From Synechococcus sp. UW140 (GTDB taxonomy: Bacteria; Cyanobacteriota; Cyanobacteriia; PCC-6307; Cyanobiaceae), in NCBI GenBank assembly GCA_943371515.1, contig CALRVC020000006.1, forward strand, positions 50,435 to 114,434: a stretch of DNA of 64,000 nucleotides, in the 5' to 3' direction. The notes beneath the pieces were generated by a model. It had not been told where the DNA came from, made no database searches, and was given only the letters and a program-made list of their open reading frames with translations. Position 1 is the stretch's first letter. Each line of letters starts with the position of its first letter. Position numbers and translations under genes: made by a program. Positions 25,813 to 64,000 of the stretch are shown here, piece by piece.

Positions 25813-26084
25813 ATCCCGCCAAGCGATGCGGAATGATTATGCCTCAGAGCTCCCCAGTGATCCCTACGGCCACCTCAGCAGCCTGGATGCCCACCGACCG
25901 CATCCACAGGCAGAAATTGCCCTCCCACCGGAATCAGCGGAAAACAATCGAAGCCACCCTTGTGCAGAGCTGCTGCATGGCGCGAGGTCCACAGTCCCCT
26001 CAGACAGGATCAGATGGCGTTCAGGGCAATTAGAGAAGAATCCCTGCGATACGCCTCGGTGCACGTGTGTAAAATGGTTCGCGA

Positions 26085-27776: not shown

Positions 27777-27815
27777 GTCCTCAAGCCCCCTCCTGTCTCT
27801 CCCATCGCTGAGTCC

Positions 27816-44180: not shown

Positions 44181-45179
44181 ATGTCGGCATTGACGCGCTG
44201 CCTGCAGGAAGAGGCCGCAGCCATCGCCGCAACGGCCGGCCGGCTGGACAGCCATCAGGTGGATGCGGCCCTGGTTCTGCTGGACCGCTGCGCCGACGAG
44301 CGCGCCAAGCTGGTGATCACCGGGGTGGGCAAGAGCGGCATCGTGGCGCGCAAGATCGCCGCCACCTTCTCCTCGATCGGGCTGATGGCCCTCTACCTCA
44401 ACCCCCTCGACGCCCTGCACGGGGATCTGGGAGTGGTGGCCCCCCAGGACGTGGTGTTGCTGCTCTCGAATAGCGGCGAGACCCAGGAACTGCTGGAGAT
44501 CCTGCCCCACCTGCGCCGCCGCGGCACCGGCCGCATCGCCCTGGTGGGCCGGGTGGCCTCGAGCCTGGCCCGGGGCTGCGAGGTGGTGCTCGATGGCTCC
44601 GTCGACCGGGAAGTGTGCCCCCTCAACCTGGCGCCCACGGCCAGCACCGCCGTGGCGATGGCGATCGGCGATGCCCTGGCGGCGGTGTGGATGGAGCGAC
44701 GCGGCATCTCACCAGCCGATTTCGCCCTCAACCATCCTGCCGGTGCCCTGGGCAAGCAACTCACCCTCACGGTGGGTGATCTGATGGTGCCGACCGCTCA
44801 GCTGCATCCCCTTGAGGAGGGCGCCAGCCTCAGCGACGTGATCGCCAGGCTCACCGGCGATGGGGTGGGGGCCTGCTGGGTCAGCCGTGCCGACAACGAC
44901 TCCCTGCTGGCTGGGCTGATCACCGATGGCGACCTGCGCCGGGCCCTGGAGCATCATGCTCCGGCCACGTGGGGGGAACTGCAGGCCACCGATCTGATGA
45001 CCGTCGACCCGATCACCGTGGGGGCGGATCTGCTGGCGGTGCAGGCGCTCGAGCGGATGGAGCACAATCGGCGCAAGCCGATCGGTGTGCTGCCTGTGCT
45101 GGCAGACGGGGGGCCGATGCTGGGGTTGCTGCGCCTGCACGATCTGGTACAGGCGGGCCTGGCGCCGGGAGCAGTCTGA
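44181..45179 (+). CDS. kdsD: Arabinose-5-phosphate isomerase (KpsF/GutQ; SIS + CBS)
   Basis: TGVGKSG, HGDLG, SNSGET, LAPTAST, HPAGALG and ITDGDLRR motifs. Confidence 0.95.
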   Translation: MSALTRCLQEEAAAIAATAGRLDSHQVDAALVLLDRCADERAKLVITGVGKSGIVARKIAATFSSIGLMALYLNPLDALHGDLGVVAPQDVVLLLSNSGETQELLEILPHLRRRGTGRIALVGRVASSLARGCEVVLDGSVDREVCPLNLAPTASTAVAMAIGDALAAVWMERRGISPADFALNHPAGALGKQLTLTVGDLMVPTAQLHPLEEGASLSDVIARLTGDGVGACWVSRADNDSLLAGLITDGDLRRALEHHAPATWGELQATDLMTVDPITVGADLLAVQALERMEHNRRKPIGVLPVLADGGPMLGLLRLHDLVQAGLAPGAV

Positions 45180-45183
45180 GCGC

Positions 45184-46026
45184 TCAGCCGTCTGCCGTCG
45201 CTGCGATCGCCCGGGCCTGCTCCAGCTGCTCGGCGGTGTCCACCGAGAGGAAATCACCGTCCACGGGGAACGTGCCCACCGGGATGCCGGCCTCGATCAG
45301 CCGCAGCTGCTCGAGCTTCTCGGTGTGCTCCAGGGGGGAGTGGGGCAGATGCGCCCAGCGGGCGAGCACGTCGGCCCGGTAGCCGTAGATGCCCACGTGC
45401 CCCCAGTAGGGAACGTGCCGGGACCAGTCAGCGGACTCGACGCCACGGACGTGCGGGATCGCCGAGCGGGAGAAGTAGAGGGCACGACCGTCCGCCGCCA
45501 GCAGCGTCTTGACCACATTCGGGTTGTGCACCTTCTCCGCACCCATGCGGTACACCGGGGTGAGCACGGCGGGGGCTGGCGTGGTGCTGGCGAAGACCTC
45601 GGCCATCGCATCGATCACCGCCGGATCAATGAAAGGTTGATCCCCCTGGACGTTGATGATCACCGTACGGGCAGGGTCAGGCGGGGCAGCGTCCGCCCCG
45701 GCGACTGCGGTCGCGGCCAGGGCCGTGAGCGCGTCCACCACCGAAGCGAGGCGGTCGCTGCCGGAGCTGCAGGAGGCCGCTGTCATCAGGACGGGGAAAC
45801 CCCAGCCCTCGGCCTCCTGCCGCAGCAGGTCGCTGTCGGTGCAGAGCACCACCGCTGCGGCCCGCCGGGACTGCCGGCAGCACTCCAGCACCCGCCGCAG
45901 CATCGGCTGCCCGCCGATTTCGGCCATCACCTTGTTCGGCAGCCGGGAAGACTCCAGCCGGGCGGGTACCGCCACCAGGTAGCGCCAGGGGGCCGCTGCC
46001 TCCTGCTGCAGGTCTGCCTCGTTCAC
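45184..46026 (-). CDS. kdsB: CMP-Kdo synthetase
   Basis: PARLESSRLPNK, SGSDR, NVQGDQP, ALYFSRSAIP, HVGIYGY, EKLEQLR and SVDT motifs; GTG start at 46026. Confidence 0.93.
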   Translation of the reverse strand: MNEADLQQEAAAPWRYLVAVPARLESSRLPNKVMAEIGGQPMLRRVLECCRQSRRAAAVVLCTDSDLLRQEAEGWGFPVLMTAASCSSGSDRLASVVDALTALAATAVAGADAAPPDPARTVIINVQGDQPFIDPAVIDAMAEVFASTTPAPAVLTPVYRMGAEKVHNPNVVKTLLAADGRALYFSRSAIPHVRGVESADWSRHVPYWGHVGIYGYRADVLARWAHLPHSPLEHTEKLEQLRLIEAGIPVGTFPVDGDFLSVDTAEQLEQARAIAATADG

Positions 46027-46054
46027 CGCAGGGCCCCGGTCGCTGCTGCGGAGC

Positions 46055-46564: not shown

Positions 46565-46586
46565 CACTGCCGTTCCTCCCGGTTCC

Positions 46587-47528
46587 GTGCCCGTGGTGCT
46601 CAGCGTGGCGTACCACAGCCTCGACGCCCTGCAGCAGCTGGGGTGTGATCTGGCCCGCCAGAGCCTGCACCCGTTCTGCTGGTTGGTGGTGGACAACAGC
46701 CCGCAGTCGGCGCCGCTGCGGGCCAGCGACCTCATCGCCGGCGGCGTGCTGCAGCTGGAGCTGGTGGCGGGCCTTGAAGGGGATGGCTTCGGGGCAGGCT
46801 GCAACCGGGGCTTCGAGTACCTGGCCGGCCGGGGCTGGGAGGGCTGGATCTGGCTGCTCAATCCCGACACCGCCCTGCCAACCGGCCATGAACTGGAGCG
46901 GCTGAGCGAGGCCCTGGCGCAACTGCCGCCCCGGGCGCTGCTGGGCACCGCCGTGCGCGCCGGGAGCGGAGAGCTCGAGCCCAGCGGCGGCTGGATCGAT
47001 CCCGGCCTCGATTTCCGCCGGCGGCGGGTGGATGAGGCCAGCCTGGCCAATGCTTTCGCCACTGCTGTCGCCTCTGCCTCCGCCACTGCCATCCCTGGCG
47101 GCGCCGCGGTGCAGCTCGACTGGCTGAGCGGCTGCAGCCTGCTGATCCGGCCCAGCGCCCACCTCCCCCCGGCTCGCTTCGATCCCGCCTTCCCCCTTTA
47201 CTACGAAGACATGGACCTCTGCCTGCGGCTGGGGGCGGCGGGCGCCCCGGTGCTGTGGTGGCCGGCGCTGGCGGTGACCCACCAGCGGGGTGCGGGCAGC
47301 CACACACCCAGCGAGCGGCGTCAGCGACTCTCGACCCTGAGTTATCTGCGCTTCCTGCACCGCCACCGACCCGGCTGGGTGCTGGCCCTGCGCAACCTGA
47401 GGCTGCTGCTCATGACGCTGCTGCGGCTGCCGGGGCGGCCGAAACGCAGCTGGGCGACGCTGGTGGCGATGGCGGAGGCCATGGGTCCCTTCCCCACCGC
47501 TTCGCCGGCGGTTCCCCCAAGGCGATGA
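46587..47528 (+). CDS. GT2 glycosyltransferase (rhamnosyltransferase-like)
   Basis: VVDNS, GFGAGCNRG, LLNPDT, WLSGC and LYYEDMDLC motifs. Confidence 0.88.
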   Translation: MPVVLSVAYHSLDALQQLGCDLARQSLHPFCWLVVDNSPQSAPLRASDLIAGGVLQLELVAGLEGDGFGAGCNRGFEYLAGRGWEGWIWLLNPDTALPTGHELERLSEALAQLPPRALLGTAVRAGSGELEPSGGWIDPGLDFRRRRVDEASLANAFATAVASASATAIPGGAAVQLDWLSGCSLLIRPSAHLPPARFDPAFPLYYEDMDLCLRLGAAGAPVLWWPALAVTHQRGAGSHTPSERRQRLSTLSYLRFLHRHRPGWVLALRNLRLLLMTLLRLPGRPKRSWATLVAMAEAMGPFPTASPAVPPRR

Positions 47529-48601
47529 GTTCGGTGATGCCCCTGGCCCTCTTCAACGGCAGCTACCTCGGGCAGCGGCCAACAGGCATCGGCGTGGTGG
47601 CCCGGGAATTGGCGGCGGCCCTGGATCCGGCCCTGGTGCCGCTGCTGGATCCCTGCGGCGGCGATCGCCCCGGCAGCCTTGCCATCCCCGCCAACCTCTC
47701 GCCCGAGCACGGCCGCGCCGGCCACATGCGCCGCCTGCTCTGGACCCAGCGGGAGCTGCCGAAACTGCTGCGCCGCAGCGGGGCGCCGCTGCTGCTCTCG
47801 CCCCTTCCGGAAGCCCCCCTGGGACGGGGGGTGCGCTCAGTGGTGCTCGCCCACGACCTGCTGCCTCTCCGCTACCCGCAGCTCACCCCTCTGCTGGCGT
47901 ACCACCTGGCCTACGTGCCGCTGGTGCTGCACCGGGCCGTGCGCGTGCTCTGCAACTCCGAAGCCACGGCCAGGGAGGTGCACCAGCGCCTGGGAGTGCC
48001 CGCGAGGCGGTTGGTGCCGATCCGGCTGGGATTCAGCCCGGGGCTGCTGCGGCCCCTGGGGCTGGAGCGGCAACCGTTTTTCCTGGTGCTCGGCCGCCAC
48101 GACCCGCACAAGAATCTGGAGCGGGTCCTGCGGGCCTTCGCGGATCTGCGCGACCGCGACCACCGCCTGGCGCTGGTGGGCCCCCAGGATCCCCGTTACA
48201 CCCCCCGCCTGCGGCGTCTGGCCAGTGAGCTGGGCATCGCCGACCGCTGCGACTGGCGCGAGTGGGTGAGCGATCAGGAACGGCTGGACTTACTCAACCG
48301 CTGCCGTGGGCTGGTGATGGCCAGCCTCTGGGAAGGATTCGGGCTGCCGGCCCTGGAGGGGATGGCCTGCGGCGCCCCCGTGATCGCCGCCGAGGCCGGG
48401 GCCCTGCCGGAAGTGGTGGGAGAGGCGGCCCTGCGGGTGGATCCCCGCTCGGTGGCCGCCATCGGCTCGGCCATGGCGGCCCTGATCCAGCAACCGGGCC
48501 TCGCCGCTCAGCTGGGGGAGGCGGGCCTGCTCCAGGCCGCCCGCTTCCGCTGGGAGGACACCGGCCGAGCGGTGGAAGAACTGCTGCGGCAACTGGCCTG
48601 A
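47525..48601 (+). CDS. GT4 glycosyltransferase
   Basis: HDLLPL, CNSEAT, PHKNL, SLWEGFGLPALEGMACG. Confidence 0.93.
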   Translation: MSSVMPLALFNGSYLGQRPTGIGVVARELAAALDPALVPLLDPCGGDRPGSLAIPANLSPEHGRAGHMRRLLWTQRELPKLLRRSGAPLLLSPLPEAPLGRGVRSVVLAHDLLPLRYPQLTPLLAYHLAYVPLVLHRAVRVLCNSEATAREVHQRLGVPARRLVPIRLGFSPGLLRPLGLERQPFFLVLGRHDPHKNLERVLRAFADLRDRDHRLALVGPQDPRYTPRLRRLASELGIADRCDWREWVSDQERLDLLNRCRGLVMASLWEGFGLPALEGMACGAPVIAAEAGALPEVVGEAALRVDPRSVAAIGSAMAALIQQPGLAAQLGEAGLLQAARFRWEDTGRAVEELLRQLA

Positions 48602-48612
48602 GCCGAGCTTGG

Positions 48613-49485
48613 TCAGACCAGGCTCACCGCCGGATCCCGGCTGGCCAGGCGAGTCACCAAGGCACGCAGGTGGGAATCACTGCTGGCCGGCAGGGCCACC
48701 AGCAGGGGCGATCCAGCCGGACGCAGGGCCAGGGCCGCCAAAAGGGCCATGCTCTCCCCCACCACGATCAGGCCCGAAAACCGGGCGATGCGCTGCTCCA
48801 GCGCGATCAGGACTTCACTCCCCCCTTGGGATGCCTCACACGGCAACGGCCACGACCGTTTCGAGCGCACCGGATGAGGGACCAGCTGCCACGGCCGGGG
48901 TAGCTGGTCCACTGTCGCCATCAGCCGCTCCACCCCGGGGGAATCCACGATCAGGCTGCCCTGGTGTGCACCTGGTGGGGGGGCAACGGGCCCGGGCGCG
49001 GATTGATAAAGCGGCCCGAGCTCCAGCACGTGGAAGCGCTCGCACCAGGGGGCCCGACTCTCGCGCTGGTCGGAGAAAAGGGCGAGGGGCGTTCCCGGCG
49101 GGAAGCGCCCGGGGTCGAGGGCCCGGGGCTGGCCGCGGTACTGATCGAGGCCGTCATCGAGCAGAAGCAGGCGGGGGCAGCGACGTACCAGCCAGCGCAG
49201 GGCTCGGCCCGCTCCACGGAGGTGGGGCAGACGCACCTCACCGACGAGCCCGAGGGTGGTGAGCAGGGCCAGGACAGCCATCACCGTCGGCTGGATCGGC
49301 AGGCGCAGGGGCCAGAGCTGACGGTCTTCGCGCTCCAGGCACAGGCGGCTGCCTTCGAGCACCAGCACCTGCAGCATCGGCGTGGCCCAGTGCCACCGCG
49401 ACGGCGAATCCGGCGCCGCCCCCCTGCGCAGGCGCCGTGCCGCCTCAAGGTTGATCCCGTTGAAGACGAAGGTGAGGCGGATCAC
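48613..49485 (-). CDS. Hypothetical GT-B-like protein with DDG and HP motifs
   Basis: LLLDDGLDQY and LVPHPVR; open frame inside the glycan cluster. Confidence 0.5.
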   Translation of the reverse strand: MIRLTFVFNGINLEAARRLRRGAAPDSPSRWHWATPMLQVLVLEGSRLCLEREDRQLWPLRLPIQPTVMAVLALLTTLGLVGEVRLPHLRGAGRALRWLVRRCPRLLLLDDGLDQYRGQPRALDPGRFPPGTPLALFSDQRESRAPWCERFHVLELGPLYQSAPGPVAPPPGAHQGSLIVDSPGVERLMATVDQLPRPWQLVPHPVRSKRSWPLPCEASQGGSEVLIALEQRIARFSGLIVVGESMALLAALALRPAGSPLLVALPASSDSHLRALVTRLASRDPAVSLV

Positions 49486-49513
49486 AGGGGCGCTGGGGCG
49501 GGTGGGGCTGCGC

Positions 49514-50521
49514 TCACGACGGCCGTCCGGCCACCCGCTTCATCCCCTGCAGGCGGCCGCGGCCCAGGGACAGCAGCCAGACCGGCAGCTCCAGCAACCG
49601 CCGGCCCGTCTGCCAATGCAGTCGATGCCACCAGTGCACCGGCCAGACCCCGTGGCGATCGAGGGGCACCAGCTTGATCGGCAGCCGCTCCAGAAAGATC
49701 TCGGGGATGGCCAGGAAGCAGCCCCAGAACACCATGCGCCGGGCGTGATCAATTTCATCAGCAGTGTCCGCCGGGAGCTTCGGCAGGCTGCCGGGCTCCA
49801 GGCGCCAGAGGCCGGGCTGGATCTGCTGATAACGGGACCGGCGACTGGCGGTGCCCCAGGGGCAGTGGGCCGCCACCAGGCGGTTACCGAGGCGGGAGGC
49901 CCGCATCGTGGCCAGGCCAAGGCTGTGACGCAGGCTGCCGCGGCCATTCGCCCGCGGCTGGCCCATGCGCTCCTCGTTCGAATGGGTGATCACCCCGATC
50001 GCAGCGACTGGGATCTCCCCCAGGGACCAACCCTGCTGGAAGGCCAGCCGGGCGCGCAGGTCCTTGTCCTCGAAGCCCCAGCCCCGCATGCACTCGTTGA
50101 AGCCTCCCACCGCCTCGAAGCGCTCGCGGGTCATCAGGAACTGGCCGTAGCGGCCCTCGGTCCCGGTGCCCACCCAAAGGGATCCATCCACCAACAGAGC
50201 CTCCGGATCGAAGTCGGCCGTGGGCCAGCAGTCGGCGTCCATGCGGATCAGCCGATCGCCATGGGCCTGGGCGAGGGCGAAGTTGTAAGCGCGGGAGGGG
50301 TTCCAGCGGGTCTCCCCCTCGACGCGCAGCAGACGCAGGCGCGGATCGGGCGGCAGATCGGAGCGGCGCAGGGGCTCGTCACTGCTCCAGTCGACCACCA
50401 GGTGTTCCTGGTGATGGGGCCAGGCGGCTACCGCGGCGGCGGAGCGCAGCAGGTGCTCGCGCCGGTTCATGCAGACGGTGACCAAGCTGAGGGAAGGGAT
50501 CGCGCCCACGGGAGATGGCAC
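49514..50521 (-). CDS. GT2/GT7-like glycosyltransferase, paralogue B
   Basis: VTVCMNR, VVDWSS, RMDADCW and GGFNE..RGWGFEDKDL motifs. Confidence 0.85.
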   Translation of the reverse strand: MPSPVGAIPSLSLVTVCMNRREHLLRSAAAVAAWPHHQEHLVVDWSSDEPLRRSDLPPDPRLRLLRVEGETRWNPSRAYNFALAQAHGDRLIRMDADCWPTADFDPEALLVDGSLWVGTGTEGRYGQFLMTRERFEAVGGFNECMRGWGFEDKDLRARLAFQQGWSLGEIPVAAIGVITHSNEERMGQPRANGRGSLRHSLGLATMRASRLGNRLVAAHCPWGTASRRSRYQQIQPGLWRLEPGSLPKLPADTADEIDHARRMVFWGCFLAIPEIFLERLPIKLVPLDRHGVWPVHWWHRLHWQTGRRLLELPVWLLSLGRGRLQGMKRVAGRPS

Positions 50522-50541
50522 GCTCAATGTAAGAATGGGAC

Positions 50542-51573
50542 TCAGCGGCGTTCCCGGCGGCGGCGGGCCAGCTGCAAGGCCTCGCGCACCAGGGCCAGGG
50601 CGAGCACAGGCAGCTGCAGCAGCTGGCGGCCGCTGACCCAGTAGAGGCGATGCCACCAGCGCACCGGCCAGGGCCCGCCCCGCGCCGGGGGCAGCAGGGG
50701 GTAAGGCATCTGCTCGAGAAACACCTCCGGAATCGCCAGGAAGGTGCCCCAGAAGGTCATGCGCCGGGCGTGCTCCACTTCCTCCTGCAGCGCCGGCGAG
50801 GGCTGGGGAAGGCTGCCCGGCTCCAGCCGCCACACCCCCTGGGGCTGCTCCAGGTAGCGGGAAGCCCGAGAGCGCCGGCCCCAGGGCTGCTGGGCAGCCA
50901 GCAACCGGTTGGCCAGGCGGGAGGCCCGCATGGCGGCAAACCCCTGGGAGCGCCGCAGCCCGAAGGGGCCAGCGGCCGGAGCCTGCTCAGCCCGCTCCTC
51001 ATCGGAATGGGGGATCACCACCAACCATTCGGCAGGGATACGGGCCGGCTCCACACCGAGACGCTGCACCAGCCGCGCCGCCAGGTCCTTGTCGTCGAAG
51101 CCGTAGCCCACCAGCACTTCATTGTAGCCACCCACCTCCGCCAGCAGGGAGCGGTCCATCAGGAACTGGCCCTTGCGGCCCTCAGGCCCACTGCCGAGGG
51201 CACAGAGCATCGTCTGGTCGACGGCTCCCAGGACGGGGTCAGGGGCTTCGAGGGCCACCATCAACGCGGCGGCGACAGGATCGAATCGCTCGCTCGGCCA
51301 GCAATCCGCATCCAGCTTCAGCAACAGGGAACCGCGGGCACGGGCGATGGCGAAGTTGTAGGCGCGGCAGAGGTTCCAGCGGTCTTCCCCCTCCACCCGC
51401 AGCAGCCGCAGGCGGGGATCCGCGGGCAGGTCCTCGCGGCGCAGGGGCTCGGTGCTGCTCCAGTCCACGATCAGGTGTTCGTTGTGGTGGGGCCAGCGAC
51501 TGAGGGCGGCGGCGGAGCGCAGCAGGTGGGCGCGGCGGTTCATGCAGACCGTGACCACGCTCAGTTCCGGCAC
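50542..51573 (-). CDS. GT2/GT7-like glycosyltransferase, paralogue A
   Basis: VTVCMNR, IVDWSS, KLDADCW and GGYNE..VGYGFDDKDL motifs. Confidence 0.85.
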   Translation of the reverse strand: MPELSVVTVCMNRRAHLLRSAAALSRWPHHNEHLIVDWSSTEPLRREDLPADPRLRLLRVEGEDRWNLCRAYNFAIARARGSLLLKLDADCWPSERFDPVAAALMVALEAPDPVLGAVDQTMLCALGSGPEGRKGQFLMDRSLLAEVGGYNEVLVGYGFDDKDLAARLVQRLGVEPARIPAEWLVVIPHSDEERAEQAPAAGPFGLRRSQGFAAMRASRLANRLLAAQQPWGRRSRASRYLEQPQGVWRLEPGSLPQPSPALQEEVEHARRMTFWGTFLAIPEVFLEQMPYPLLPPARGGPWPVRWWHRLYWVSGRQLLQLPVLALALVREALQLARRRRERR

Positions 51574-51604
51574 CGTCGGCTCCGTCTCGCGCGCTGCCAA
51601 CAGG

Positions 51605-52375
51605 TCAGTCCCAGAGCCTGAGGGCGTCGTCGCGGGCGGAGAACCATTCCGCCGCCAGCGGGCCGCCCATGGTGCGCTGCTCCCGGAACCAGGGTCCCCC
51701 CAGGGTCCAGTGGAGCAGGGTTGGGCCTCCTTCGGCCACGGCTGCCGTCGGGGCGGCCTGCACATCCACCAGGTGGTTCCAGCGACCGTCGAGGGCACCG
51801 ATCTCATGGTCACCTGCCAGCCAGTGGAAGCGGTGCAGCTCCAGGCCGCTGGCGCTGTTGACGTAATCGGGGGTCAGGGCCTGGCAGCGGCCGCAGTTGA
51901 GCAGCATCAGGGAGCTCCAGTTCTTCTTCGGGTAGGCGCTCTGCACCTCGCCGAGGAATTTCACTGTTTCCGCAGGCACGTGCTCGTGCTGAACGCACAT
52001 CAGGGCATAGTCGTCGCTGCGCTCGGCCCAGAGCTCGGCGATATCACCGCGGCAGAGCATGTCGCAGTCCATGAAGACGGCCCAGCCCTGATAGCCCATC
52101 AGATGGGGCACCAGGAAGCGGGTGAAGGAGAAGGCCGTGCTCTGCTTCGGATCCTTCTCCCGGTGGTAGAGACCCTGCTGCTCCAGCTGGGGGGTCACCA
52201 GGGGTGTGATCGCCAGCGGTGCGCTGCTGTGCTGATAGAGGCTGTCGATCAGCACGGTGGTGGCGGCCCGCTCGCGCGGGTCGTAGCCAATGAAGATGGG
52301 GATCGGTGCCGGACCCCGCCGATCCGTTGCCGCGATCACGCTGGAATTGTCTGCGACAGGGGAGGGCTGTTCCAT
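51605..52375 (-). CDS. GT-A glycosyltransferase similar to plant CDI (GT8-like)
   Basis: IFIGYDPRE, STAFSFTRFLVP, FMDCDML, YPKKNWSS, LHRFHWL and HWTLGGPWF motifs. Confidence 0.82.
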   Translation of the reverse strand: MEQPSPVADNSSVIAATDRRGPAPIPIFIGYDPRERAATTVLIDSLYQHSSAPLAITPLVTPQLEQQGLYHREKDPKQSTAFSFTRFLVPHLMGYQGWAVFMDCDMLCRGDIAELWAERSDDYALMCVQHEHVPAETVKFLGEVQSAYPKKNWSSLMLLNCGRCQALTPDYVNSASGLELHRFHWLAGDHEIGALDGRWNHLVDVQAAPTAAVAEGGPTLLHWTLGGPWFREQRTMGGPLAAEWFSARDDALRLWD

Positions 52376-52479
52376 GGGGGCCAATCCTGCGGACATTGAT
52401 CAGGGGGTCAGAGTAAGAGCTGGACGTTGCTTGCCCGAGGCCGGCTCAGCCTCGTCTCGGCAGGGTCCTGACCGGAGGC

Positions 52480-54165: not shown

Positions 54166-54280
54166 GGACAGGAACGAGGCTTGGCTGTTCTCCCCCGAAC
54201 CAGCTGGGGCTCTGCTGAATAGCCCGGGAGTCGCCAGGGCAGGGCGTGAAACCCAGCCAGGCGTCGATACAGTAGGTGCA

Positions 54281-56674: not shown

Positions 56675-57753
56675 GCACGGCTCCCAGGGTGCTGGTGCTC
56701 AGCGGAGGGCTGATCCATCTCGTCAACCAGCTGGCGGTGGTGCTGGAGCGGCCGGAGCTGCGTGGGGGTGCCACGGAGATCGCTCTGCTGCTCACCGGTG
56801 CCATCACCTGGGATCCCCTGCGACTGGCCGAGCAGCACGGGGCAATCGAGCGCTGGCTGGAGCGGCTGCGCCAGCTGGATCCTGAAGCCATGGCTCCGGT
56901 GCACCTCGTGCGGGAGCCGGAGGCCCTTGAGCCGGGCACCTACGACCTGGCCTGCCTCAACAACCAATGGCAGCAGGTGCAGCGGGACCCCTGCGAGCGG
57001 CTGGGGATCCCCACCTGGCTGATCTGCGGCGATGGCCTGGGCCTTTACTACCGCTGCGCCCGCGAGCTGAAGGCGATCCTGCCCAGCCTGCTCAACCGGC
57101 CGATCCCGGAGCCGGGCCGACGGGTGCACACTGTGCTAGAAGGCGCCCAACCGTGCTGGCATCGCCCCCACGGTCCGGTGGATCCTGTGCCGCTGGGCAC
57201 CCGCGTGCGACTGTTTGAAGCCCTGGTGGCCAGTTTCGATGCGGCCGGCCAGCCGTTCGTGGAGGCCTGTCTGACGGCCACCCTGCCAGACCGGCCCCTC
57301 TGGCTCTGCTCCCTCCCCAACCTGGCCCATCAGTTCCCAGGGGAGCGGCTGCCACCGGAGCTGCTCGGGGCCTGGATCGCCAAGCTGCCGGGCTTCGATC
57401 CGTCCCTGGATCGCCTGCTGCTGATCGAGCATCCGAAGGCACCGACCGCCGGCAGCTTCGGTCCCGAACCGCCCGCCGTGGTGGCCGCCGTGTTGCGCAG
57501 TGCGGTACCTGTGGAGGTGCTGGTGCGGACTCTGGAGCAGGCGGCACCCGGCCGGCGCCTGGTGGTGGCCGGCCTCACCTCGGCGCTCTATGGCGTGCGC
57601 AGCCTGAGCGGCGCCGAGGTGGTCTGGCTCAGCCTTCGGCCCCTGTGGACCCACAACCCCCGCTACCGGCGTCATCCCCTGGAATTCCTGCATCGTCTGG
57701 TGCGGATGCGGCGCATGGCCTGGCTGACCCGGCGGCTGGTGACCCCGTGCTGA
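56671..57753 (+). CDS. Hypothetical GT-B-like protein (polysialyltransferase-like motifs)
   Basis: N-terminal GLIHLVNQL, then ICGDGLGLYY and LIEHPK; GTGA overlap with the pcrA stop. Confidence 0.5.
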   Translation: MSTAPRVLVLSGGLIHLVNQLAVVLERPELRGGATEIALLLTGAITWDPLRLAEQHGAIERWLERLRQLDPEAMAPVHLVREPEALEPGTYDLACLNNQWQQVQRDPCERLGIPTWLICGDGLGLYYRCARELKAILPSLLNRPIPEPGRRVHTVLEGAQPCWHRPHGPVDPVPLGTRVRLFEALVASFDAAGQPFVEACLTATLPDRPLWLCSLPNLAHQFPGERLPPELLGAWIAKLPGFDPSLDRLLLIEHPKAPTAGSFGPEPPAVVAAVLRSAVPVEVLVRTLEQAAPGRRLVVAGLTSALYGVRSLSGAEVVWLSLRPLWTHNPRYRRHPLEFLHRLVRMRRMAWLTRRLVTPC

Positions 57754-59069: not shown

Positions 59070-59082
59070 GGCCTGGGCCGGA

Positions 59083-60309
59083 TCACCAGCGCACCTGCCA
59101 GGGCCAGCGATCAGGCACGCAGAGGAAGTCGTCGTTCTGGCCGCAATCCAGGCCGGCGGAAGGAAGGATGCGGCCCTCGAACCAATACTGGAACGTGACG
59201 TAGACCGCTGGGATCACACACCAGTGGGCCTCGTAGTGGTTGAGCCAGATCAGGAAGCTGATCAGCAGCAGGAAGGCGACGCTGTCGGCCAGGCGGCTGG
59301 TGACCTGGGGCAGCCACTGGTGGCTGACCGAGGCCTGTATCAGCAGGTAGGCCACCCCGAAGACCATCAGCAGCCGGGTCTGTTCACAGCGCAGCAACCG
59401 CAAGGGTGAGAGCCGCTTCTGGGCGCAGGCCAGCAGGACGCCCAGGGTCAGGGCGCGTTGCAGTCGGCCCACGATCCTGCGGATTGAATAATCACTGAAA
59501 TAGGCATCGAAGGAGTAGTCCTGCAGGCGCTGGAGGGCCGTGATCCCCACCAGGGTGATCAGGCCCCCACCAGCGAGCACCGACAGCAGAACCAGCCAGC
59601 GCCGCCAGCCGGCGAGCGACCAGACAGCTCGGCAGCGCCCGGCCGCCAGGGCCAGCGACTCCGGCAGGCGCATGGCCAGGGGGGTGAGGCTGATCAGCAG
59701 ATTCCAGACGATGGTGCTGTGGGTGAGTGCCGAGAGGATCACCCCCAGCCCCAGCCAGAGACGTTGGGGGCGAAACTGGCGGGCCGCCCAGAGCATCAGC
59801 GGCAGCAGCAGCAGCACCGCCAGGGCCTGACGGCTGTGGGCGTTCTGCATGAAACCCCGCAGCATCGGGCTGCAGCAGATCAGCAGACTCCACCAGCCGC
59901 CCCAGGCGGGCACACCCCAGGCCCGAGCCATCAGCAGCGGCGCTGCCGCATAACCAGCGGCCACCAGGCCATGCACGGCGGCCATGCGGTAGGGCAGCAG
60001 CAGCACCAGCGGCCGCAGCAGGCGCCAGAGGGGCTCCGGCGGTCCCCGCTCCGGATCTACAGCCATGTAATGGGAAAAGCGGGTGGTGTCGCTGTTGCCC
60101 CAGCTGGCCAGGGTGAAGAACACCAGCACCAGCAGCAGGAGCAGCACGGCGGCGCCCCACCAAAGGCGTGGCCTCCGGCAGGCCCCGGCCAGATGCATCA
60201 GCAGCGCCATCAGGACCTGGGCCAGGAACAGGGCAGCCATCAGACCCGGGGCCTGGGTGACCTGGTCGATCCGGAAGGGAGCCTCGAGCGGAAAGGCCGC
60301 AGACAGCAT
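59083..60309 (-). CDS. EpsG/Wzy-like polysaccharide polymerase, paralogue B
   Basis: About 10 TM segments; SRQALA, THST and TSRLAD motifs; paralogous to the upstream gene. Confidence 0.65.
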   Translation of the reverse strand: MLSAAFPLEAPFRIDQVTQAPGLMAALFLAQVLMALLMHLAGACRRPRLWWGAAVLLLLLVLVFFTLASWGNSDTTRFSHYMAVDPERGPPEPLWRLLRPLVLLLPYRMAAVHGLVAAGYAAAPLLMARAWGVPAWGGWWSLLICCSPMLRGFMQNAHSRQALAVLLLLPLMLWAARQFRPQRLWLGLGVILSALTHSTIVWNLLISLTPLAMRLPESLALAAGRCRAVWSLAGWRRWLVLLSVLAGGGLITLVGITALQRLQDYSFDAYFSDYSIRRIVGRLQRALTLGVLLACAQKRLSPLRLLRCEQTRLLMVFGVAYLLIQASVSHQWLPQVTSRLADSVAFLLLISFLIWLNHYEAHWCVIPAVYVTFQYWFEGRILPSAGLDCGQNDDFLCVPDRWPWQVRW

Positions 60310-61547
60310 CAGCGTGAGGGGAGATCCCAGTAGCGGATCTGCCAGGGCCAGCGATCGGGAATGCAGAGAAAGCTGTCGTCAAGGCCGCAGGGCAGCAGGC
60401 GCGAGGGCAGCAGGCGCTCCATCAACCAGTAATCAACCGTGACGAACAAAGCTGGCAGCACCGCCCAATGGCATTGGTAACGGTTCAACCAGGCCAGATA
60501 CACAACCAACAGAAACAAGCCCACCACATCGGCGAGGCGACTGGTGATCTGCGGAAACCATACGGCCTGCACCGACCATTGCATCAGGTGGTAGAGAAGG
60601 CCGAACAGGATCAGCTGACGGGTGACACCGCAGCTCAACAAGGTGCGCCAGCTCAGCCTCCGCCGCCAGCAGGCGAGCAGTACCCCCAGCAGCATCGCCT
60701 GCTGGAGCCTCCCCACCGCCGGATCCAGGGGGTACTTGTTGAAGTAGCTCTCCTGCTGGACGTAGGTCGCCAGTTTCTCCACCGCCGTTGGCAGGGCCAG
60801 AGCCACCAGCAGCGCCAGGCCGGCGACCAGTGCGGCGACGGCCACCAGGGCGATCGCACCAGCAGGCCGGCGCAGACGCCGACGCAGCAGGGCCAGAGTC
60901 GTGGTCCGCCCCGCCAGCAGCCCCGGCAGAAGTGCCAGCGTGAGGGAGCCGGCGAAGGCGGTGTGCATCGTGAGTGAGAGCAGGGCGAGCAGGCCGGCCC
61001 AGCGCCTCCGCACCTCGGCCAGCTGACCCGCCCAGAGCAGCAGAGGCACCAGCAGCAGCGTGGCCAGGGCCTGGCGGCTGACGCCGTTCTGGAGAAAGTT
61101 GCGCAGCAGCGGACTGCAGCAGATCAACAGGCTCCACCAGCCTGCCCAGGCAAGGGCCCGCCAGCGCCATGCCAACAACAGCGGCGCCAGGGCATAGCCG
61201 GCCACCACCAGCCCATGCACGGCCGACATGCGGTAGGGCAGCCGCACCACCCAGGGGGCCACCAGCAGCCAGAAGGCCTCCCCCTTGACGCGGGAGAGAT
61301 CGAAACTGAAGTAGTAGCTCAGCTTGGTGGTGTCACTGTTGCCCCAGCTGGCGAGAGTGAAGAACAGCCCCACCAGGGCCACCAGGGCCAGGGCCGCCAT
61401 CCACCAGAAGGCAGCCCGCTGGCGCACCCCCGCCCAGGCCATGGCGGCCGCCAGCACCAGCTGGGCGGCAAAGAGACCAGCCATCAGCAGCGGCGCCGCT
61501 GTGACCTGATCAAGGCGAAACGGCGCGACCGACGGGAAGGCCAGCAC
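60309..61547 (-). CDS. EpsG/Wzy-like polysaccharide polymerase, paralogue A
   Basis: About 10 TM segments; SRQALA, MHTA and TSRLAD motifs; TGATG overlap with paralogue B. Confidence 0.65.
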   Translation of the reverse strand: MLAFPSVAPFRLDQVTAAPLLMAGLFAAQLVLAAAMAWAGVRQRAAFWWMAALALVALVGLFFTLASWGNSDTTKLSYYFSFDLSRVKGEAFWLLVAPWVVRLPYRMSAVHGLVVAGYALAPLLLAWRWRALAWAGWWSLLICCSPLLRNFLQNGVSRQALATLLLVPLLLWAGQLAEVRRRWAGLLALLSLTMHTAFAGSLTLALLPGLLAGRTTTLALLRRRLRRPAGAIALVAVAALVAGLALLVALALPTAVEKLATYVQQESYFNKYPLDPAVGRLQQAMLLGVLLACWRRRLSWRTLLSCGVTRQLILFGLLYHLMQWSVQAVWFPQITSRLADVVGLFLLVVYLAWLNRYQCHWAVLPALFVTVDYWLMERLLPSRLLPCGLDDSFLCIPDRWPWQIRYWDLPSR

Positions 61548-61552
61548 GGCGC

Positions 61553-62677
61553 TCAGGAGGCGGGAGCGGACCGGCGCCGGTCCAGCAACAGATCACGCAG
61601 GGCCGGGACCGGCTGCAGCGCATCGAAGCCCCAGTAGGGATCGAGCAGGCGTCGCACGCTGTCCTGGTAACCAGGCTCCGCCGACCCCAGCACCTCCCGC
61701 AGGAGAGTGCTCAGGCGCTGCCGCTCGGTCCACTCAGCGGCCTCCTCCTCAGCCTTGGCGCCGGCCAGGGCCGAGAGGTCCTGCTCGGCTTCCGCCTCGA
61801 TCCAGTGCAGCCGTGCTCCCAGGGCCACCCCATAGCCGAGGTGGGTGCCGAAGGCATTACTGGCCAGACCATCACTGAGCTCCAACAGGGTGCGCATCGC
61901 GTCGAGGAACCAGGGGTTGGAGCGATGCCCATTGCAGGCCACGATCCATTCCGGCGGCAGCTGCAGGAGCTCGGGGTCCTTCCAGTGGCGCAGCCAGATC
62001 AGCGAGCGGTAACCGCCGGACTCCATCAGCCCGCGGACCTCCGCCACGCAGCGGTCCAGATCCATGCGCCGCTCCACCTGATCCCAGCTGTGGGCCAGCA
62101 CCACCAGCAGGGTGGGGCCGAGCTCGGCGCGCAACTGGCTGATCGCCTCGACCGTGAGCAGGGGGCGGGCATAGGCGATCCAGGGGCCGATGGCATGGGC
62201 TGGCAGCCCGAAACGCTCCCGCAGCCAGCGGGCCCGCAGGGGTCCCATGCAGAGGTAGCCGCGGGTCCAGGGGCGCGGACTCTCGAAGGTGGCCTCCCGG
62301 CTCACCTTGAGGCCGTGCTCCAGCAGGTGGGGGAGCGGCGCCCCGATCAACGGCAGGCCCGCATGGCGCTTGAGCTGGATGTCGTGGCCATAGTGGTGGG
62401 AGGAGTTCTCCAGCTCGCGCCGGGCCGGGCTGAAGAACGGCTTGGTGGAGACGGCGGAGCGGAAGGCATGACGATCCCAGAGGTCGGCACTCACCCGGGG
62501 GGAGAAAGGCCGCTGGCCGAAGGCCTGATGCACCAGTCCCCTGTAGGCGGCCAGGGCCTGCCACTCATCCCGGTCCAGCCGTTCCAGCCGGCCGATCGGA
62601 CCGAGCCGTCCGGCCCTGACAGCCTGGCGCAGCCCGGCGCGCAACCGCTCCCGCAGGCCTGTAAGGCGCTCAGCCAT
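61553..62677 (-). CDS. Hypothetical protein coupled to kdsC; putative glycosyltransferase
   Basis: Long ORF with YGH..LK.HAG, LEHG, IGPWIAYA, LAHS, RHWKD and SNAFGTHLGY segments; overlaps the kdsC stop. Confidence 0.55.
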   Translation of the reverse strand: MAERLTGLRERLRAGLRQAVRAGRLGPIGRLERLDRDEWQALAAYRGLVHQAFGQRPFSPRVSADLWDRHAFRSAVSTKPFFSPARRELENSSHHYGHDIQLKRHAGLPLIGAPLPHLLEHGLKVSREATFESPRPWTRGYLCMGPLRARWLRERFGLPAHAIGPWIAYARPLLTVEAISQLRAELGPTLLVVLAHSWDQVERRMDLDRCVAEVRGLMESGGYRSLIWLRHWKDPELLQLPPEWIVACNGHRSNPWFLDAMRTLLELSDGLASNAFGTHLGYGVALGARLHWIEAEAEQDLSALAGAKAEEEAAEWTERQRLSTLLREVLGSAEPGYQDSVRRLLDPYWGFDALQPVPALRDLLLDRRRSAPAS

Positions 62678-63251
62678 TGCGGTCACGCCAGCCGGCACGG
62701 CTCAGCACCCGCCACTCGTCCCGTGCCCTCAGGATCGCCTCGGCCAGGGAGCGCACGGCGCCTTGGCCGCCGCCGGCAGCGAGCACCGCATCGGCCTGAC
62801 GGCGCAGGGGCCTCACCGCATCAGCCGGACAGAGCAGCAGGCCAACCCCCGGCCGCACCGCCAGATCATTGAGGTCGTCACCCACAAAAGCGGTCTGGGA
62901 GATGGTCATGCCCAGGCTGCTCTGCAGCTGCGCCAAAGCCTCGGGCTTGTCCTTGACTCCGGTCAGGCACTGGCTGATGCCCAGATAGCGGGCCCGCTGC
63001 TCGGTGGCACCGCTCTTGCCGCCGCTGAGCAGCGCCACCTCGAGGCCCGCCTGCTGCAGCAGCCGGATCCCGAGACCATCGCGCACATCGAAGCGCTTGA
63101 TCACCTCCCCAGACTCCGTGGTCCAGAGACCCCCGTCGGTGAGCACCCCATCCACATCCAGCACCAGCAGCCGCAGGGCCCGCAGCCGCTGACGCCAGCG
63201 CCAGGCCAGCAGGGCCGGCTGGCGCCAGGGCAAGACCAGAGGCCCACTCAC
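62670..63251 (-). CDS. kdsC: Kdo-8-phosphate phosphatase
   Basis: [21 protein letters not shown] and FVGDDLNDL motifs. Confidence 0.95.
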
Positions 63252-64000
63252 AGCACCGTGACGGCCTCCCCCTGCTCCTGCAGGGGGGCGCGGATGGCCA
63301 GCAACTGCTCCAGCAGCGGCTCGACCCGATGCAACGGCACCATGTTCGGCCCATCGCTGAGGCCCCGGTCGGGATCGGGATGCACTTCCATGAACAGGCC
63401 ATCGATGCCGACCGCAGCTGCTGCCCGCGCCAGGGGTGCCACGAATTCACGCTGGCCACCGCTGCTGCTGCCGCGGCCTCCAGGCTGCTGCACCGAATGG
63501 GTGGCATCGAAAATCACCGGGCAACCCAGGGCGCGCAGCTGGGGCAGACTGCGGAAATCGACGACGAGGGTGTTGTACCCGAAGCTGGAGCCCCGCTCGG
63601 TGAGCCAGAGGTTCTCCACCCCGGCCTCCCGCAGCTTGGTCACCACCTGGGCCATATCCCAGGGGGCGAGGAACTGGCCCTTCTTGACGTTGATGATCTT
63701 GTCGGTGCCACGCACCGCCTCGGCAGCCGCCAGCAGCAGATCGGTCTGGCGGCAGAGGAAGGCAGGAATCTGCAGCACATCCACCACCTCAGCCACGGGG
63801 CCCGCCTGCTGGCTTTCGTGGATGTCGGTGAGCACCGGCAGGCCGAAGCGCTGCTTCACTTCCTTGAGCACCTGCAGTCCCCCGCTGACTCCAGGGCCGC
63901 GGAAGGAGCCCCCGGAGCTGCGGTTGGCCTTGTCGAAGCTGGCCTTGAAGATGTAGGTGATGCCCAGCCGCTCGGCGATCGCCTGCATCCGCTCAGCCAC
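63248..64000 (-). CDS. kdsA: Kdo-8-phosphate synthase (5' end outside window)
   Basis: [36 protein letters not shown] and [10 protein letters not shown] motifs. Confidence 0.98.

What the first reader, a model, noticed from the sequence alone, without database searches (positions are those of the whole stretch)
44181..64000. Complete Kdo activation pathway clustered with polymer genes but no waaA in the window
Seen: kdsD, kdsA, kdsC and kdsB all lie within about 20 kb, mixed with eight or more GT-like genes and two polymerases; no lipid A Kdo transferase appears in the window. Established: structural work on marine Synechococcus LPS reported no Kdo. Inference: Kdo here may go to a capsule, O-chain or other surface glycan rather than the lipid A core.
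Basis: partly seen in the sequence, partly recalled or inferred. Interest (0 to 1): 0.7.

Follow-up and report, generated by a model that had tools for sequence, protein, structure and literature searches.

The report
Kdo sugar genes without usual transferase
This freshwater/brackish picocyanobacterium carries all four genes for making the activated sugar CMP-Kdo but, like every cyanobacterium sampled, lacks the enzyme (WaaA) that normally attaches Kdo to lipid A, so an undescribed transferase must use it, and the neighbouring genes provide three concrete candidates.

Summary
kdsD, kdsB, kdsC and kdsA all score above curated NCBIfam cut-offs. They lie among six glycosyltransferases supported by Pfam or fold, plus two weaker candidates. 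WaaA is absent from the window, from this 99.97%-complete genome and from 151 sampled cyanobacterial genomes. KpsC/KpsS and LpxK are also absent; LpxC is present.

1. A GT8 hexosyltransferase travels with kdsB: 58 of 58 genomes with the orthologue have KdsB, and in 33 the two genes are adjacent.
2. orf381, translationally coupled to kdsA-kdsC in about 80 loci, has a GT-B-like fold and no family assignment. It belongs to about 1,000 uncharacterised clusters. In 5 of 6 informative contexts, distant members sit beside a cytidylyltransferase, four times together with NeuB, and some are fused to Wzy_C.
3. orf290 best matches the Neisseria GT52 sialyltransferase fold and keeps both sialyltransferase motifs.

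The genome has no NeuB and no second CTP_transf_3 enzyme, so CMP-Kdo is the only donor of that class available.

Best reading: Kdo enters an envelope glycan through a non-WaaA transferase, with orf381 the leading candidate. Whether that glycan is an O-chain or capsule-like polymer, or a non-canonical LPS core, remains unresolved. The "two polymerases" could not be verified. The organism is a WH 5701/Cyanobium-type strain, not the lineage whose LPS was analysed.

The parts
44181..45179 (+). kdsD/kpsF, arabinose-5-phosphate isomerase (SIS + CBS)
   Evidence: Pfam SIS + CBS; NCBIfam TIGR00393 248 bits, above the 203.7 cut-off
45184..45975 (-). kdsB, CMP-Kdo synthetase (start 45975 or 46026; the ORF stays open to 46530)
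   Evidence: PF02348; NF003952 293 bits above 193 and TIGR00466 170 above 155; the only strong CTP_transf_3-type ORF in the genome
46055..46462 (-). HIT-like small protein (HLHVHLIPRH motif), conserved together with kdsB and GT8
   Evidence: Sub-threshold HIT match, 12.8 bits, across the histidine triad; conserved next to kdsB/GT8 in Vulcanococcus-type and other loci
46587..47528 (+). Weak GT2-like glycosyltransferase (GT2a)
   Evidence: PF00535 23.3 bits, equal to the cut-off; conserved with GT4 in relatives
47525..48601 (+). GT4 (GT-B) glycosyltransferase; the ATG at 47525 overlaps the GT2a stop codon
   Evidence: Glycos_transf_1 99.6 bits; start-codon analysis
48613..49485 (-). orf290: orphan GT-B protein, sialyltransferase (GT52)-like; candidate CMP-Kdo transferase
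   Evidence: No Pfam, NCBIfam or PDB sequence hit. AF2 pLDDT 85.8. Top Foldseek PDB hits are Neisseria NST, 2yk7/2yk6/2yk5/2yk4, prob 1.00, E 4.5e-5. Invariant D110-D111-G112, H204-P205, K209-R210, E244-S245
49514..50527 (-). GT2 glycosyltransferase (GT2b)
   Evidence: PF00535 / Glyco_transf_7C
50542..51600 (-). GT2 glycosyltransferase (GT2c), paralogue of GT2b
   Evidence: PF00535 / Glyco_transf_7C
51605..52396 (-). GT8 retaining glycosyltransferase, the conserved partner of kdsB across cyanobacteria
   Evidence: PF01501 26.5 bits above 24.3. DxD motif (MDCDM) and H..GGPW motif. Nearest PDB entry is the WbbM GT8 domain, 6u4b, E 3.4e-5. 58/58 orthologue-bearing genomes are KdsB-positive; 33 are adjacent to kdsB
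52480..54165 (-). orf607: about 10-TM membrane protein with a soluble C-terminal domain, no family assignment
   Evidence: Hydropathy; no Pfam or NCBIfam hit; conserved in close relatives only
56671..57753 (+). orfX: conserved 360-aa orphan between pcrA and the CCA enzyme, with CGDGLG / HPKAP / GLTSAL motifs; a possible further GT
   Evidence: 51-94% identity in about 50 Cyanobium loci. No Pfam or NCBIfam hit. No detectable homology to orf290 or orf381 by hhalign
59083..60309 (-). orf408: polytopic membrane protein, paralogue of orf412 (putative polymerase/ligase, unverified)
   Evidence: 51% identical to orf412; TM segments; no Wzy signal
60309..61547 (-). orf412: polytopic membrane protein directly downstream of orf381
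61553..62677 (-). orf381: orphan GT-B-like protein, coupled to kdsC (8-bp overlap); leading candidate for a non-WaaA Kdo transferase
   Evidence: No Pfam, NCBIfam or PDB sequence hit. AF2 pLDDT 77, core 100-375 good. All top fold hits are GT-B enzymes. Follows kdsA(-kdsC) in about 80 loci. 20/20 genomes carrying it are KdsB-positive. Family of 998 clusters, with cytidylyltransferase/NeuB/Wzy contexts
62670..63251 (-). kdsC, Kdo-8-phosphate phosphatase
   Evidence: HAD; TIGR01670 144 bits above 107
63248..64000 (-). kdsA, Kdo-8-phosphate synthase (the 5' end runs about 63 bp past the window end). Upstream on the same strand, outside the window, lie an ABC exporter and a GT1-like gene
   Evidence: PF00793; NF003543 387 bits above 242; full ORF and upstream genes

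Best explanation
The region is a conserved envelope-glycan locus that makes its own CMP-Kdo (KdsD, then KdsA, KdsC and KdsB) and uses it through a transferase unrelated in sequence to WaaA.

Shown:
- The four pathway genes are intact and conserved.
- WaaA, KpsC/KpsS and LpxK are absent.
- CMP-Kdo is the only CMP-activated ulosonic acid the genome can visibly make.
- A GT8 gene co-occurs strictly with kdsB, and orf381 strictly with kdsA.

Inferred:
- orf381, a GT-B-like protein of an unclassified family, transfers Kdo from CMP-Kdo onto a lipid-linked or growing glycan on the cytoplasmic face.
- The GT8 enzyme adds a hexose or hexuronic acid next to, or onto, the Kdo.
- orf290, a GT52-sialyltransferase-like protein, is a second possible Kdo transferase, making a different linkage or a chain cap.
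- The ABC exporter upstream of kdsA moves the lipid-linked product across the inner membrane.
- The two polytopic proteins after orf381 polymerise or ligate it.

The end product is most likely a Kdo-containing O-chain or capsule-like surface glycan. A non-canonical LPS core is the main alternative. The confidence given is for the core claim (non-WaaA use of CMP-Kdo in an envelope glycan). For orf381 being the Kdo transferase I give about 0.4, and for a destination other than the lipid A-proximal core about 0.55.
For: - Pathway genes score above curated cut-offs.
- WaaA: 0 hits in the own genome and 0/151 cyanobacteria, while controls are positive. PF05159 is absent. LpxK is absent and LpxC present.
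- KdsB is in 26/151 genomes of the class and 78/151 of the family, so Kdo synthesis without WaaA is maintained widely.
- orf381 lies directly after kdsA(-kdsC) in about 80 loci down to 56% identity. 20/20 orf381-positive genomes are KdsB-positive. Its fold is GT-B.
- Distant family members sit beside CTP_transf_3 + NeuB in 4 of 6 informative contexts and beside a cytidylyltransferase in 5 of 6. Two are fused to Wzy_C.
- orf290: best PDB fold matches are the CMP-Neu5Ac-dependent NST, and its DDG and HP motifs are invariant.
- No NeuB and no second CTP_transf_3 enzyme in the genome.
- Precedent: the plant RG-II Kdo transferase RCKT1 is sialyltransferase-like (PMC12168206).
- The GT8 orthologue is in 58 genomes, all KdsB-positive, 33 adjacent to kdsB.
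Against: - No biochemical or compositional data exist for this organism.
- 58 KdsB-positive genomes in the family lack orf381, and compact kdsDACB + GT8 modules have no other GT beside them. orf381 therefore cannot be the general cyanobacterial Kdo transferase.
- The fold matches for orf381 are weak (E about 1e-3, TM about 0.3) and not specific to CMP-sugar enzymes. One distant context points to CDP-alcohol chemistry (L117, LicD + CTP_transf_like). One short context has a TagF-type gene alongside (L121). One cyanobacterial homologue sits among housekeeping genes.
- The sampled contexts are few and two are near-duplicates.
- The membrane proteins show no Wzy/WaaL similarity.
- The co-occurrence statistics are not corrected for phylogeny.
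Confidence: 0.8

Rival explanations
1. Kdo is attached directly to the unphosphorylated cyanobacterial lipid A, or its first core sugar, by a functional analogue of WaaA encoded in the locus. The locus would then be an LPS inner-core locus, and the ABC exporter next to kdsA would be the lipid A-core flippase.
For: - An ABC exporter with MsbA architecture lies immediately upstream of kdsA and is conserved there in about 55 loci and in another genus. Its best NCBIfam match is MsbA_lipidA.
- Kdo has been measured in LPS preparations of Anacystis nidulans and some other cyanobacteria (PMC4515613), and the S. elongatus control genome has KdsB but no WaaA.
- The literature treats kdsABCD as LPS-core genes.
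Against: - The MsbA score (261 bits) is far below the 602 cut-off and similar to the scores for HepA, PglK and glucan exporters.
- The only solved picocyanobacterial LPS structures have glucose, not Kdo, on lipid A.
- Relatives of orf381 occur in Wzx/Wzy-type repeat-unit loci, not core loci.
- The lpx genes are on another contig.
Confidence: 0.3
2. The GT8-like protein is itself the Kdo transferase, an unprecedented GT-A-fold, CMP-Kdo-dependent enzyme. orf381 and orf290 would then be lineage-specific extras using other donors.
For: - It is the only glycosyltransferase that tracks kdsB everywhere. 58/58 orthologue-bearing genomes are KdsB-positive, 33 within 100 bp of kdsB.
- The same holds in another cyanobacterial family (G012) and, more weakly, in S. 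elongatus-like genomes.
- Compact kdsD-A-C-B + GT8 modules have no other GT beside them.
Against: - It has canonical GT8 features: PF01501 above cut-off, a DxD motif, the H..G..PW motif, and WbbM GT8 galactosyltransferase as its nearest structure. These are typical of metal-dependent, retaining NDP-hexose transferases.
- To my knowledge no GT8 or DxD GT-A enzyme is known to use a CMP-ulosonic acid.
- The plant putative GT8 CDI uses GDP-L-galactose.
Confidence: 0.15
3. The Kdo transferase is encoded elsewhere in the genome, in a family not examined here. The orphan proteins in the locus would transfer ordinary sugars, and their linkage to the kds genes would reflect only shared membership of one surface-glycan island.
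For: KdsB-positive genomes without orf381, orf290 or orfX exist. The fold evidence for donor specificity is indirect.
Against: orf381 is translationally coupled to kdsC and nested strictly within KdsB-positive genomes. Distant family members recur beside cytidylyltransferase + NeuB modules. orf290 matches a CMP-sugar enzyme fold.
Confidence: 0.15

Closest known systems
WaaA/KdtA (CAZy GT30), the lipid A Kdo transferase
   Same: It would use the same donor, CMP-Kdo, supplied by the same KdsD/A/C/B pathway. It is also a GT-B-fold enzyme.
   Different: No PF04413 domain anywhere in this genome or in 151 cyanobacterial genomes. Its acceptor, lipid IVA, cannot be made because LpxK is absent. orf381 and orf290 share no detectable sequence similarity with it.
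Non-WaaA Kdo transferases of polysaccharide pathways: KpsC/KpsS (GT107) and WbbB N-terminal domain (GT99)
   Same: The concept is the same: dedicated kpsF/kpsU-like CMP-Kdo supply genes embedded in a surface-polysaccharide locus, with Kdo placed in a linker or chain terminus rather than on lipid A.
   Different: PF05159 is absent. No KpsMT or Wzm/Wzt-type two-component transporter was seen in the locus; there is instead a fused ABC exporter. Neither model retrieved WbbB or KpsC structures among its top 50 fold hits.
Bacterial sialyltransferases with D/E-D/E-G and HP motifs, especially Neisseria Lst/NST (GT52; PDB 2yk4-2yk7)
   Same: orf290: best fold matches (prob 1.00), a two-Rossmann GT-B architecture, and an invariant DDG in the N-domain with HP at the start of the C-domain.
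   Different: No sequence-level membership: no Pfam, NCBIfam or PDB profile hit. It is smaller (290 aa), TM-scores are only about 0.4, and the genome has no sialic-acid pathway, so the donor would be CMP-Kdo.
Plant RG-II enzymes: RCKT1/MGP2 (GT29, sialyltransferase-like Kdo transferase) and CDI (putative GT8, L-galactosyltransferase)
   Same: A Kdo-containing non-LPS glycan built by a sialyltransferase-like enzyme together with a GT8-type enzyme (PMC12168206). The window pairs the same two enzyme types with the kds genes.
Wzx/Wzy-dependent nonulosonic-acid (NeuB + CMP-synthetase) O-antigen and capsule loci
   Same: Distant members of the orf381 family sit in such loci next to CTP_transf_3, NeuB, Wzx and Wzy, sometimes fused to Wzy_C. 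The window shows the analogous order: supply genes, then orf381, then polytopic membrane proteins.
   Different: Here the ulosonic acid is the 8-carbon Kdo (KdsA rather than NeuB). No Wzx (Polysacc_synt) was found in the locus, and the membrane proteins are not recognisably Wzy.

Membership tests
CMP-Kdo biosynthesis pathway (KdsD, KdsA, KdsC, KdsB) | All four enzymes present and scoring above curated family cut-offs | tested here: met
   TIGR00393 248 above 203.7; NF003543 387 above 242; TIGR01670 144 above 107; NF003952 293 above 193
WaaA/KdtA (GT30) | Glycos_transf_N domain (PF04413) above the gathering score anywhere in the genome | tested here: not met
   the only hit is 17.3 bits, inside an ordinary GT4; 0/151 cyanobacteria; E. 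coli, Caulobacter and Bacteroides controls positive
WaaA/KdtA (GT30) | Availability of the lipid IVA acceptor (requires LpxK) | tested here: not met
   no LpxK above cut-off. LpxC present
KpsC/KpsS (GT107) capsule Kdo transferases | Capsule_synth domain (PF05159) | tested here: not met
   no match at E <= 1
GT52/GT38/GT80-type bacterial sialyltransferases (for orf290) | GT-B fold most similar to a solved sialyltransferase | tested here: met
   pLDDT 85.8; four of the top five hits are NST (2yk4-2yk7), prob 1.00, E 4.5e-5 to 3.6e-4; TM about 0.4
GT52/GT38/GT80-type bacterial sialyltransferases (for orf290) | Conserved D/E-D/E-G and HP motifs (motif definition recalled from the literature, not checked in a paper here) | tested here: met
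   D110-D111-G112 and H204-P205 are invariant in 21 sequences at 49-84% identity
GT52/GT38/GT80-type bacterial sialyltransferases (for orf290) | Sequence-profile membership (Pfam, NCBIfam or PDB profile hit) | tested here: not met
   no hit even at relaxed thresholds
GT52/GT38/GT80-type bacterial sialyltransferases (for orf290) | Use of a CMP-activated ulosonic acid donor | not testable with these tools
   Needs an enzyme assay. Indirectly, CMP-Kdo is the only such donor the genome encodes
GT8 retaining glycosyltransferases (for the 51605-52396 gene) | PF01501 above cut-off, DxD motif, C-terminal H..G..PW motif | tested here: met
   26.5 above 24.3; invariant D110/D112, near-invariant H229..G233-G234-P235-W236; WbbM GT8 domain, E 3.4e-5
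Wzy O-antigen polymerase / WaaL ligase (for orf412 and orf408) | Wzy_C, O-ag_pol_Wzy or EpsG profile match, or profile-profile similarity to a Wzy | tested here: not met
   none of 23 family members matches; hhalign probability below 1%. Only the multi-TM topology and the position after a GT are Wzy-like
MsbA lipid A flippase (for the ABC exporter upstream of kdsA) | TIGR02203 equivalog score above the 602 cut-off | tested here: not met
   260.8 bits; HepA, PglK, glucan and bacteriocin exporters score similarly
WbbB-type beta-Kdo transferase (GT99) | Fold or sequence similarity to the WbbB N-terminal domain | tested here: inconclusive
   No WbbB entry among the top 50 PDB fold hits for either model. 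No GT99 profile was available to search

The most novel reading that the evidence does not exclude
orf381 founds a large, unclassified glycosyltransferase family (about 1,000 clusters at 50% identity across bacteria). Its members would transfer CMP-activated ulosonic acids (Kdo here, nonulosonic acids elsewhere) into Wzy/Wzx-type surface glycans. In Cyanobium-type picocyanobacteria it would be the missing Kdo transferase of a phylum that lacks WaaA.
Probability: 0.35. Interest if true: 0.75.

Novelty: new variant of a known kind. Interest (0 to 1): 0.62.

Why it matters
Kdo is treated as the signature sugar of the lipid A inner core, and annotation pipelines and evolutionary papers read kdsABCD in picocyanobacteria as "LPS core" genes. 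Yet no cyanobacterium sampled has the enzyme that makes that core.

Identifying where the Kdo goes and which enzyme puts it there would do three things. It would correct the annotation of a widespread gene set in some of the most abundant phototrophs. It would define the chemistry of a surface glycan likely to matter for phage and grazer recognition; a cyanophage was recently reported to carry kdsA and kdsB. And it could add one or two new Kdo or ulosonic-acid transferase families to the four known (GT30, GT73, GT99, GT107), with about 1,000 uncharacterised relatives in other bacteria.

The candidates are specific enough for knockout and in-vitro tests.

Tried and rejected
- The one weak PF04413 hit in the genome (C4:17901-18053) is an ordinary GT4 (Glyco_trans_1_4 92 bits), not WaaA.
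- orf290 and orfX share a motif series, but hhalign gives probability below 1%. orf381 against orfX is likewise negative. No common origin is claimed.
- orf412/orf408 as Wzy polymerases: 23 family members scanned against Pfam, plus hhalign against a Wzy_C fusion and a Wzy. All negative.
- Profile searches of the orf381 and orf290 families against PDB sequences found nothing.
- The ABC exporter cannot be called MsbA.
The top 120 of more than 7,200 homologues are all picocyanobacterial, and no CDI sequence was on hand.
- Snyder et al. 2009 (PMC2725629) is not in the library. Its content is cited only through reviews, and I could not find out whether WH8102 and CC9311 carry kds genes.
- Seven of the twelve context look-ups for distant orf381 relatives returned contigs too short to be informative.
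- The distant cyanobacterial homologue in L105 lies among housekeeping genes. It is a counter-example and I kept it in the tally.
- No structure-prediction jobs remained for the GT8-like protein, orfX or orf412.

Full report
**1. What is in the sequence**

The window has 62-72% G+C, so raw ORF lists are full of overlapping frames. I fixed the gene map with Pfam and NCBIfam scans.

The four Kdo genes are real:
- kdsD/kpsF, 44181-45179 (+).
- kdsB, 45184-c.45975 (-).
- kdsC, 62670-63251 (-).
- kdsA, from 63248 to about 63 bp past the window end (-).

Each scores above the curated NCBIfam cut-off.

Between and around them lie:
- a sub-threshold HIT-like ORF (46055-46462);
- a weak GT2 (46587-47528) and a GT4 (47525-48601);
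- the orphan orf290 (48613-49485);
- two paralogous GT2 genes (49514-c.50527 and 50542-c.51600);
- a GT8 (51605-52396);
- a roughly 10-TM orphan (52480-c.54165);
- pcrA/uvrD, the conserved orphan orfX (56671-57753) and the CCA-adding enzyme;
- two paralogous polytopic membrane proteins (59083-60309 and 60309-61547);
- the soluble orphan orf381 (61553-62677).

Start-codon analysis shows 4-8 bp overlaps linking kdsA, kdsC and orf381.

The locus continues past the window. Upstream of kdsA on the same strand are a fused ABC exporter, a GT1-like gene and heme oxygenase.

**2. The organism**

The genome is 3.33 Mb, 65.5% G+C and 99.97% complete. At orf381 its nearest named relatives are Synechococcus sp. 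Cruz-7E5, 1G10 and J7-Johnson (95-96% identity) and WH 5701 (93%), followed by Cyanobium and Vulcanococcus.

It is therefore a WH 5701/Cyanobium-type (subcluster 5.2-like) picocyanobacterium. It does not belong to the oceanic lineage (WH8102, CC9311) whose LPS was shown to lack Kdo (PMC4515613).

**3. The missing transferase**

- PF04413, the WaaA N-domain, gives no hit above cut-off in this genome. The single weak hit is an ordinary GT4.
- In an even sample of 151 genomes from the same class (81 genera) there is no hit at all, while the E. coli, Caulobacter and Bacteroides controls are positive. This agrees with Opiyo et al. 2010, who found only lpxA, C, D and B in cyanobacteria (PMC3087551).
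- LpxK is absent here and LpxC is present, so WaaA's acceptor, lipid IVA, is not made either.
- KpsC/KpsS (PF05159) is absent.
- Yet KdsB occurs in 26 of 151 genomes of the class, including the S. elongatus control, and in 78 of 151 genomes (35 of 64 genera) of the family.

"Kdo synthesis without WaaA" is thus a conserved cyanobacterial condition, not a gap in one assembly.

**4. What travels with the kds genes**

*(a) The GT8 gene.* Orthologues (at least 340 bits) occur in 58 of the 151 family genomes. All 58 are KdsB-positive (Fisher p about 7.5e-25, uncorrected for phylogeny). The gene lies within 100 bp of kdsB in 33 genomes and within 15 kb in 18 more. The same adjacency occurs in another cyanobacterial family (G012). 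Weaker GT8-like genes flank the kds operon of S. elongatus-like genomes. Several genera carry a compact kdsD-kdsA-kdsC-kdsB-GT8 module with no other glycosyltransferase beside it. The protein has the DxD and H..GGPW motifs, and its nearest solved relative is the GT8 galactosyltransferase domain of WbbM. This argues for an NDP-hexose transferase acting next to Kdo, not a CMP-Kdo enzyme.

*(b) orf381.* In 80 loci from named genomes it follows kdsA, usually as kdsA-kdsC-orf381, down to 56% identity. This holds even in the rearranged Vulcanococcus-type loci. In the family sample it occurs in 20 genomes, all positive for both KdsB and GT8. In Cyanobium-type genomes the operon heme oxygenase, GT1-like, ABC exporter, kdsA, kdsC, orf381, orf412, orf408 is conserved in about 55 loci.

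*(c) orf290 and orfX.* Both are confined to the Cyanobium-type lineage.

**5. What the orphans are**

*orf290.* It has no sequence-family hit, but its model is confident (pLDDT 85.8, pTM 0.83). Four of its five best PDB matches are the Neisseria LOS sialyltransferase NST (GT52), including the CMP-3F-Neu5Ac complex (prob 1.00, E 4.5e-5 to 3.6e-4). TM-scores are about 0.4, as expected when the two domains of a GT-B enzyme are oriented differently. D110-D111-G112, H204-P205, K209-R210 and E244-S245 are invariant across the family. From memory, the first two are the D/E-D/E-G and HP motifs of bacterial sialyltransferases.

*orf381.* Its model is good over residues 100-375. All top fold hits are GT-B enzymes (UDP-GlcNAc 2-epimerase, UGTs, TagF), but weakly so. 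An exhaustive profile search shows it belongs to a large unannotated family: 998 representative clusters, 768 of them at E <= 1e-10.

Distant members have no Pfam domain, except that two carry an N-terminal Wzy_C domain fused to the orf381-like domain. Of the six distant members with informative context:
- four lie within a few kb of a CTP_transf_3 cytidylyltransferase plus NeuB, along with Wzx and Wzy genes (L106, L108, L112, L116);
- one lies beside a CTP_transf_like enzyme, LicD and Wzy_C (L117);
- one cyanobacterial homologue sits among housekeeping genes (L105).

The sample is small, and two contexts are near-duplicates. Still, the repeated association with cytidine-nucleotide sugar activation and Wzy-type machinery is what would be expected of a transferase for CMP-activated ulosonic acids.

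*orfX.* It is a real, conserved gene. I could not assign it a fold, and hhalign finds no relationship to orf290 or orf381.

*orf412 and orf408.* They show no similarity to Wzy or WaaL. "Polymerase" is a guess based on position only.

**6. An elimination argument**

Profile HMMs run over all ORFs of the genome find KdsB as the only strong CTP_transf_3-type enzyme. They find no NeuB-like synthase at all. If orf290 or orf381 uses a CMP-activated ulosonic acid, as fold and context suggest, that donor can only be CMP-Kdo.

A precedent exists. The plant RG-II Kdo transferase RCKT1 is a sialyltransferase-like protein, and RG-II synthesis also involves a putative GT8 (PMC12168206).

**7. Where the Kdo goes**

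This is not resolved.
- For a polymer or other surface glycan: the Wzy/Wzx associations of the orf381 family, the membrane proteins downstream of orf381, the many further GTs in the locus, and the Kdo-free lipid A-core of the only solved picocyanobacterial LPS.
- For a non-canonical LPS core: the ABC exporter next to kdsA, whose best (but far sub-threshold) match is MsbA, and the old reports of Kdo in Anacystis LPS.

I put about 0.55 on a destination other than the lipid A-proximal core.

**8. Verdict**

A non-WaaA route is close to certain, a KpsC/KpsS-type capsule is excluded, and the destination is open.
- The absence of WaaA from cyanobacteria and the presence of kds genes are both already in the literature. 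An earlier follow-up in this scan reached a similar reading for S. elongatus; that is not independent evidence.
- What is new here is the strict kdsB-GT8 coupling, quantified across 151 genomes, and two specific transferase candidates backed by fold and context. One of them belongs to a large unclassified family.

Noticed in passing
window 56671-57753 (+): orfX is a conserved 360-aa orphan wedged between pcrA and the CCA-adding enzyme (its start overlaps the pcrA stop codon). Invariant blocks are CGDGLGxYYR, HPKAP..GSFG and GLTSALYG. It is 51-94% identical in about 50 Cyanobium loci, has no family hit and shows no detectable homology to orf290.
   Followed up: partly
G000 contig C13:14605-15273 (outside the window): A second, 54-56% identical paralogue of the kdsB-linked GT8 gene. 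The same paralogue type occurs in many relatives, including two genomes with no KdsB hit (both incomplete: 85% and 80%), so it is not tied to Kdo.
   Followed up: partly
relatives G237, G259, G230: In three related genomes the orf381 homologue contains an in-frame TGA or is split in two. Two genomes of the same genus carry much more divergent alleles (about 380 against 670 bits). This suggests decay or diversifying selection at this surface-glycan gene, or sequencing errors.
   Followed up: no
C6:114514-117501, just beyond the window end (L118:514-3501): A fused ABC exporter (ABC_membrane + ABC_tran, 621 aa) and a GT1-like gene lie directly upstream of kdsA. Together with heme oxygenase they are conserved there in about 55 loci and in another genus (L100).
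   Followed up: partly
G000 contig C4:17457-18683 and C4:30046-30840: The GT4 that gave the only weak WaaA-N-like hit lies about 12 kb from lpxC. It could be a core glycosyltransferase acting on lipid A, but this was not examined.
   Followed up: no
window 46055-46462 (-): A small HIT-like ORF (histidine triad HLHVHLIPRH, sub-threshold Pfam match) is conserved with kdsB and the GT8 gene in several arrangements. Its role in a Kdo locus is unexplained.
   Followed up: partly
L103 (G132) and other small genomes: Several Prochlorococcus-sized genomes score 115-145 bits for KdsB, below the cut-off. They have no GT8 orthologue, and in L103 there is no kdsA/C/D nearby and identity is only 25%. These are probably a different cytidylyltransferase, so the KdsB count of 78/151 somewhat overstates Kdo capacity.
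   Followed up: partly
literature (PMC12801897): The cyanomyovirus S-SCSM2R, which infects both Prochlorococcus and Synechococcus, is reported to carry kdsA and kdsB. This suggests that Kdo-containing host surface glycans matter in phage-host interactions.
   Followed up: no
window 24000-28000 and 10519-11484: A dip in G+C to 0.55-0.60 at 24-28 kb lies in a region other first-stage notes describe as a glycosylation island. A WecG/TagA-family glycosyltransferase sits at 10519-11484 among housekeeping genes.
   Followed up: no
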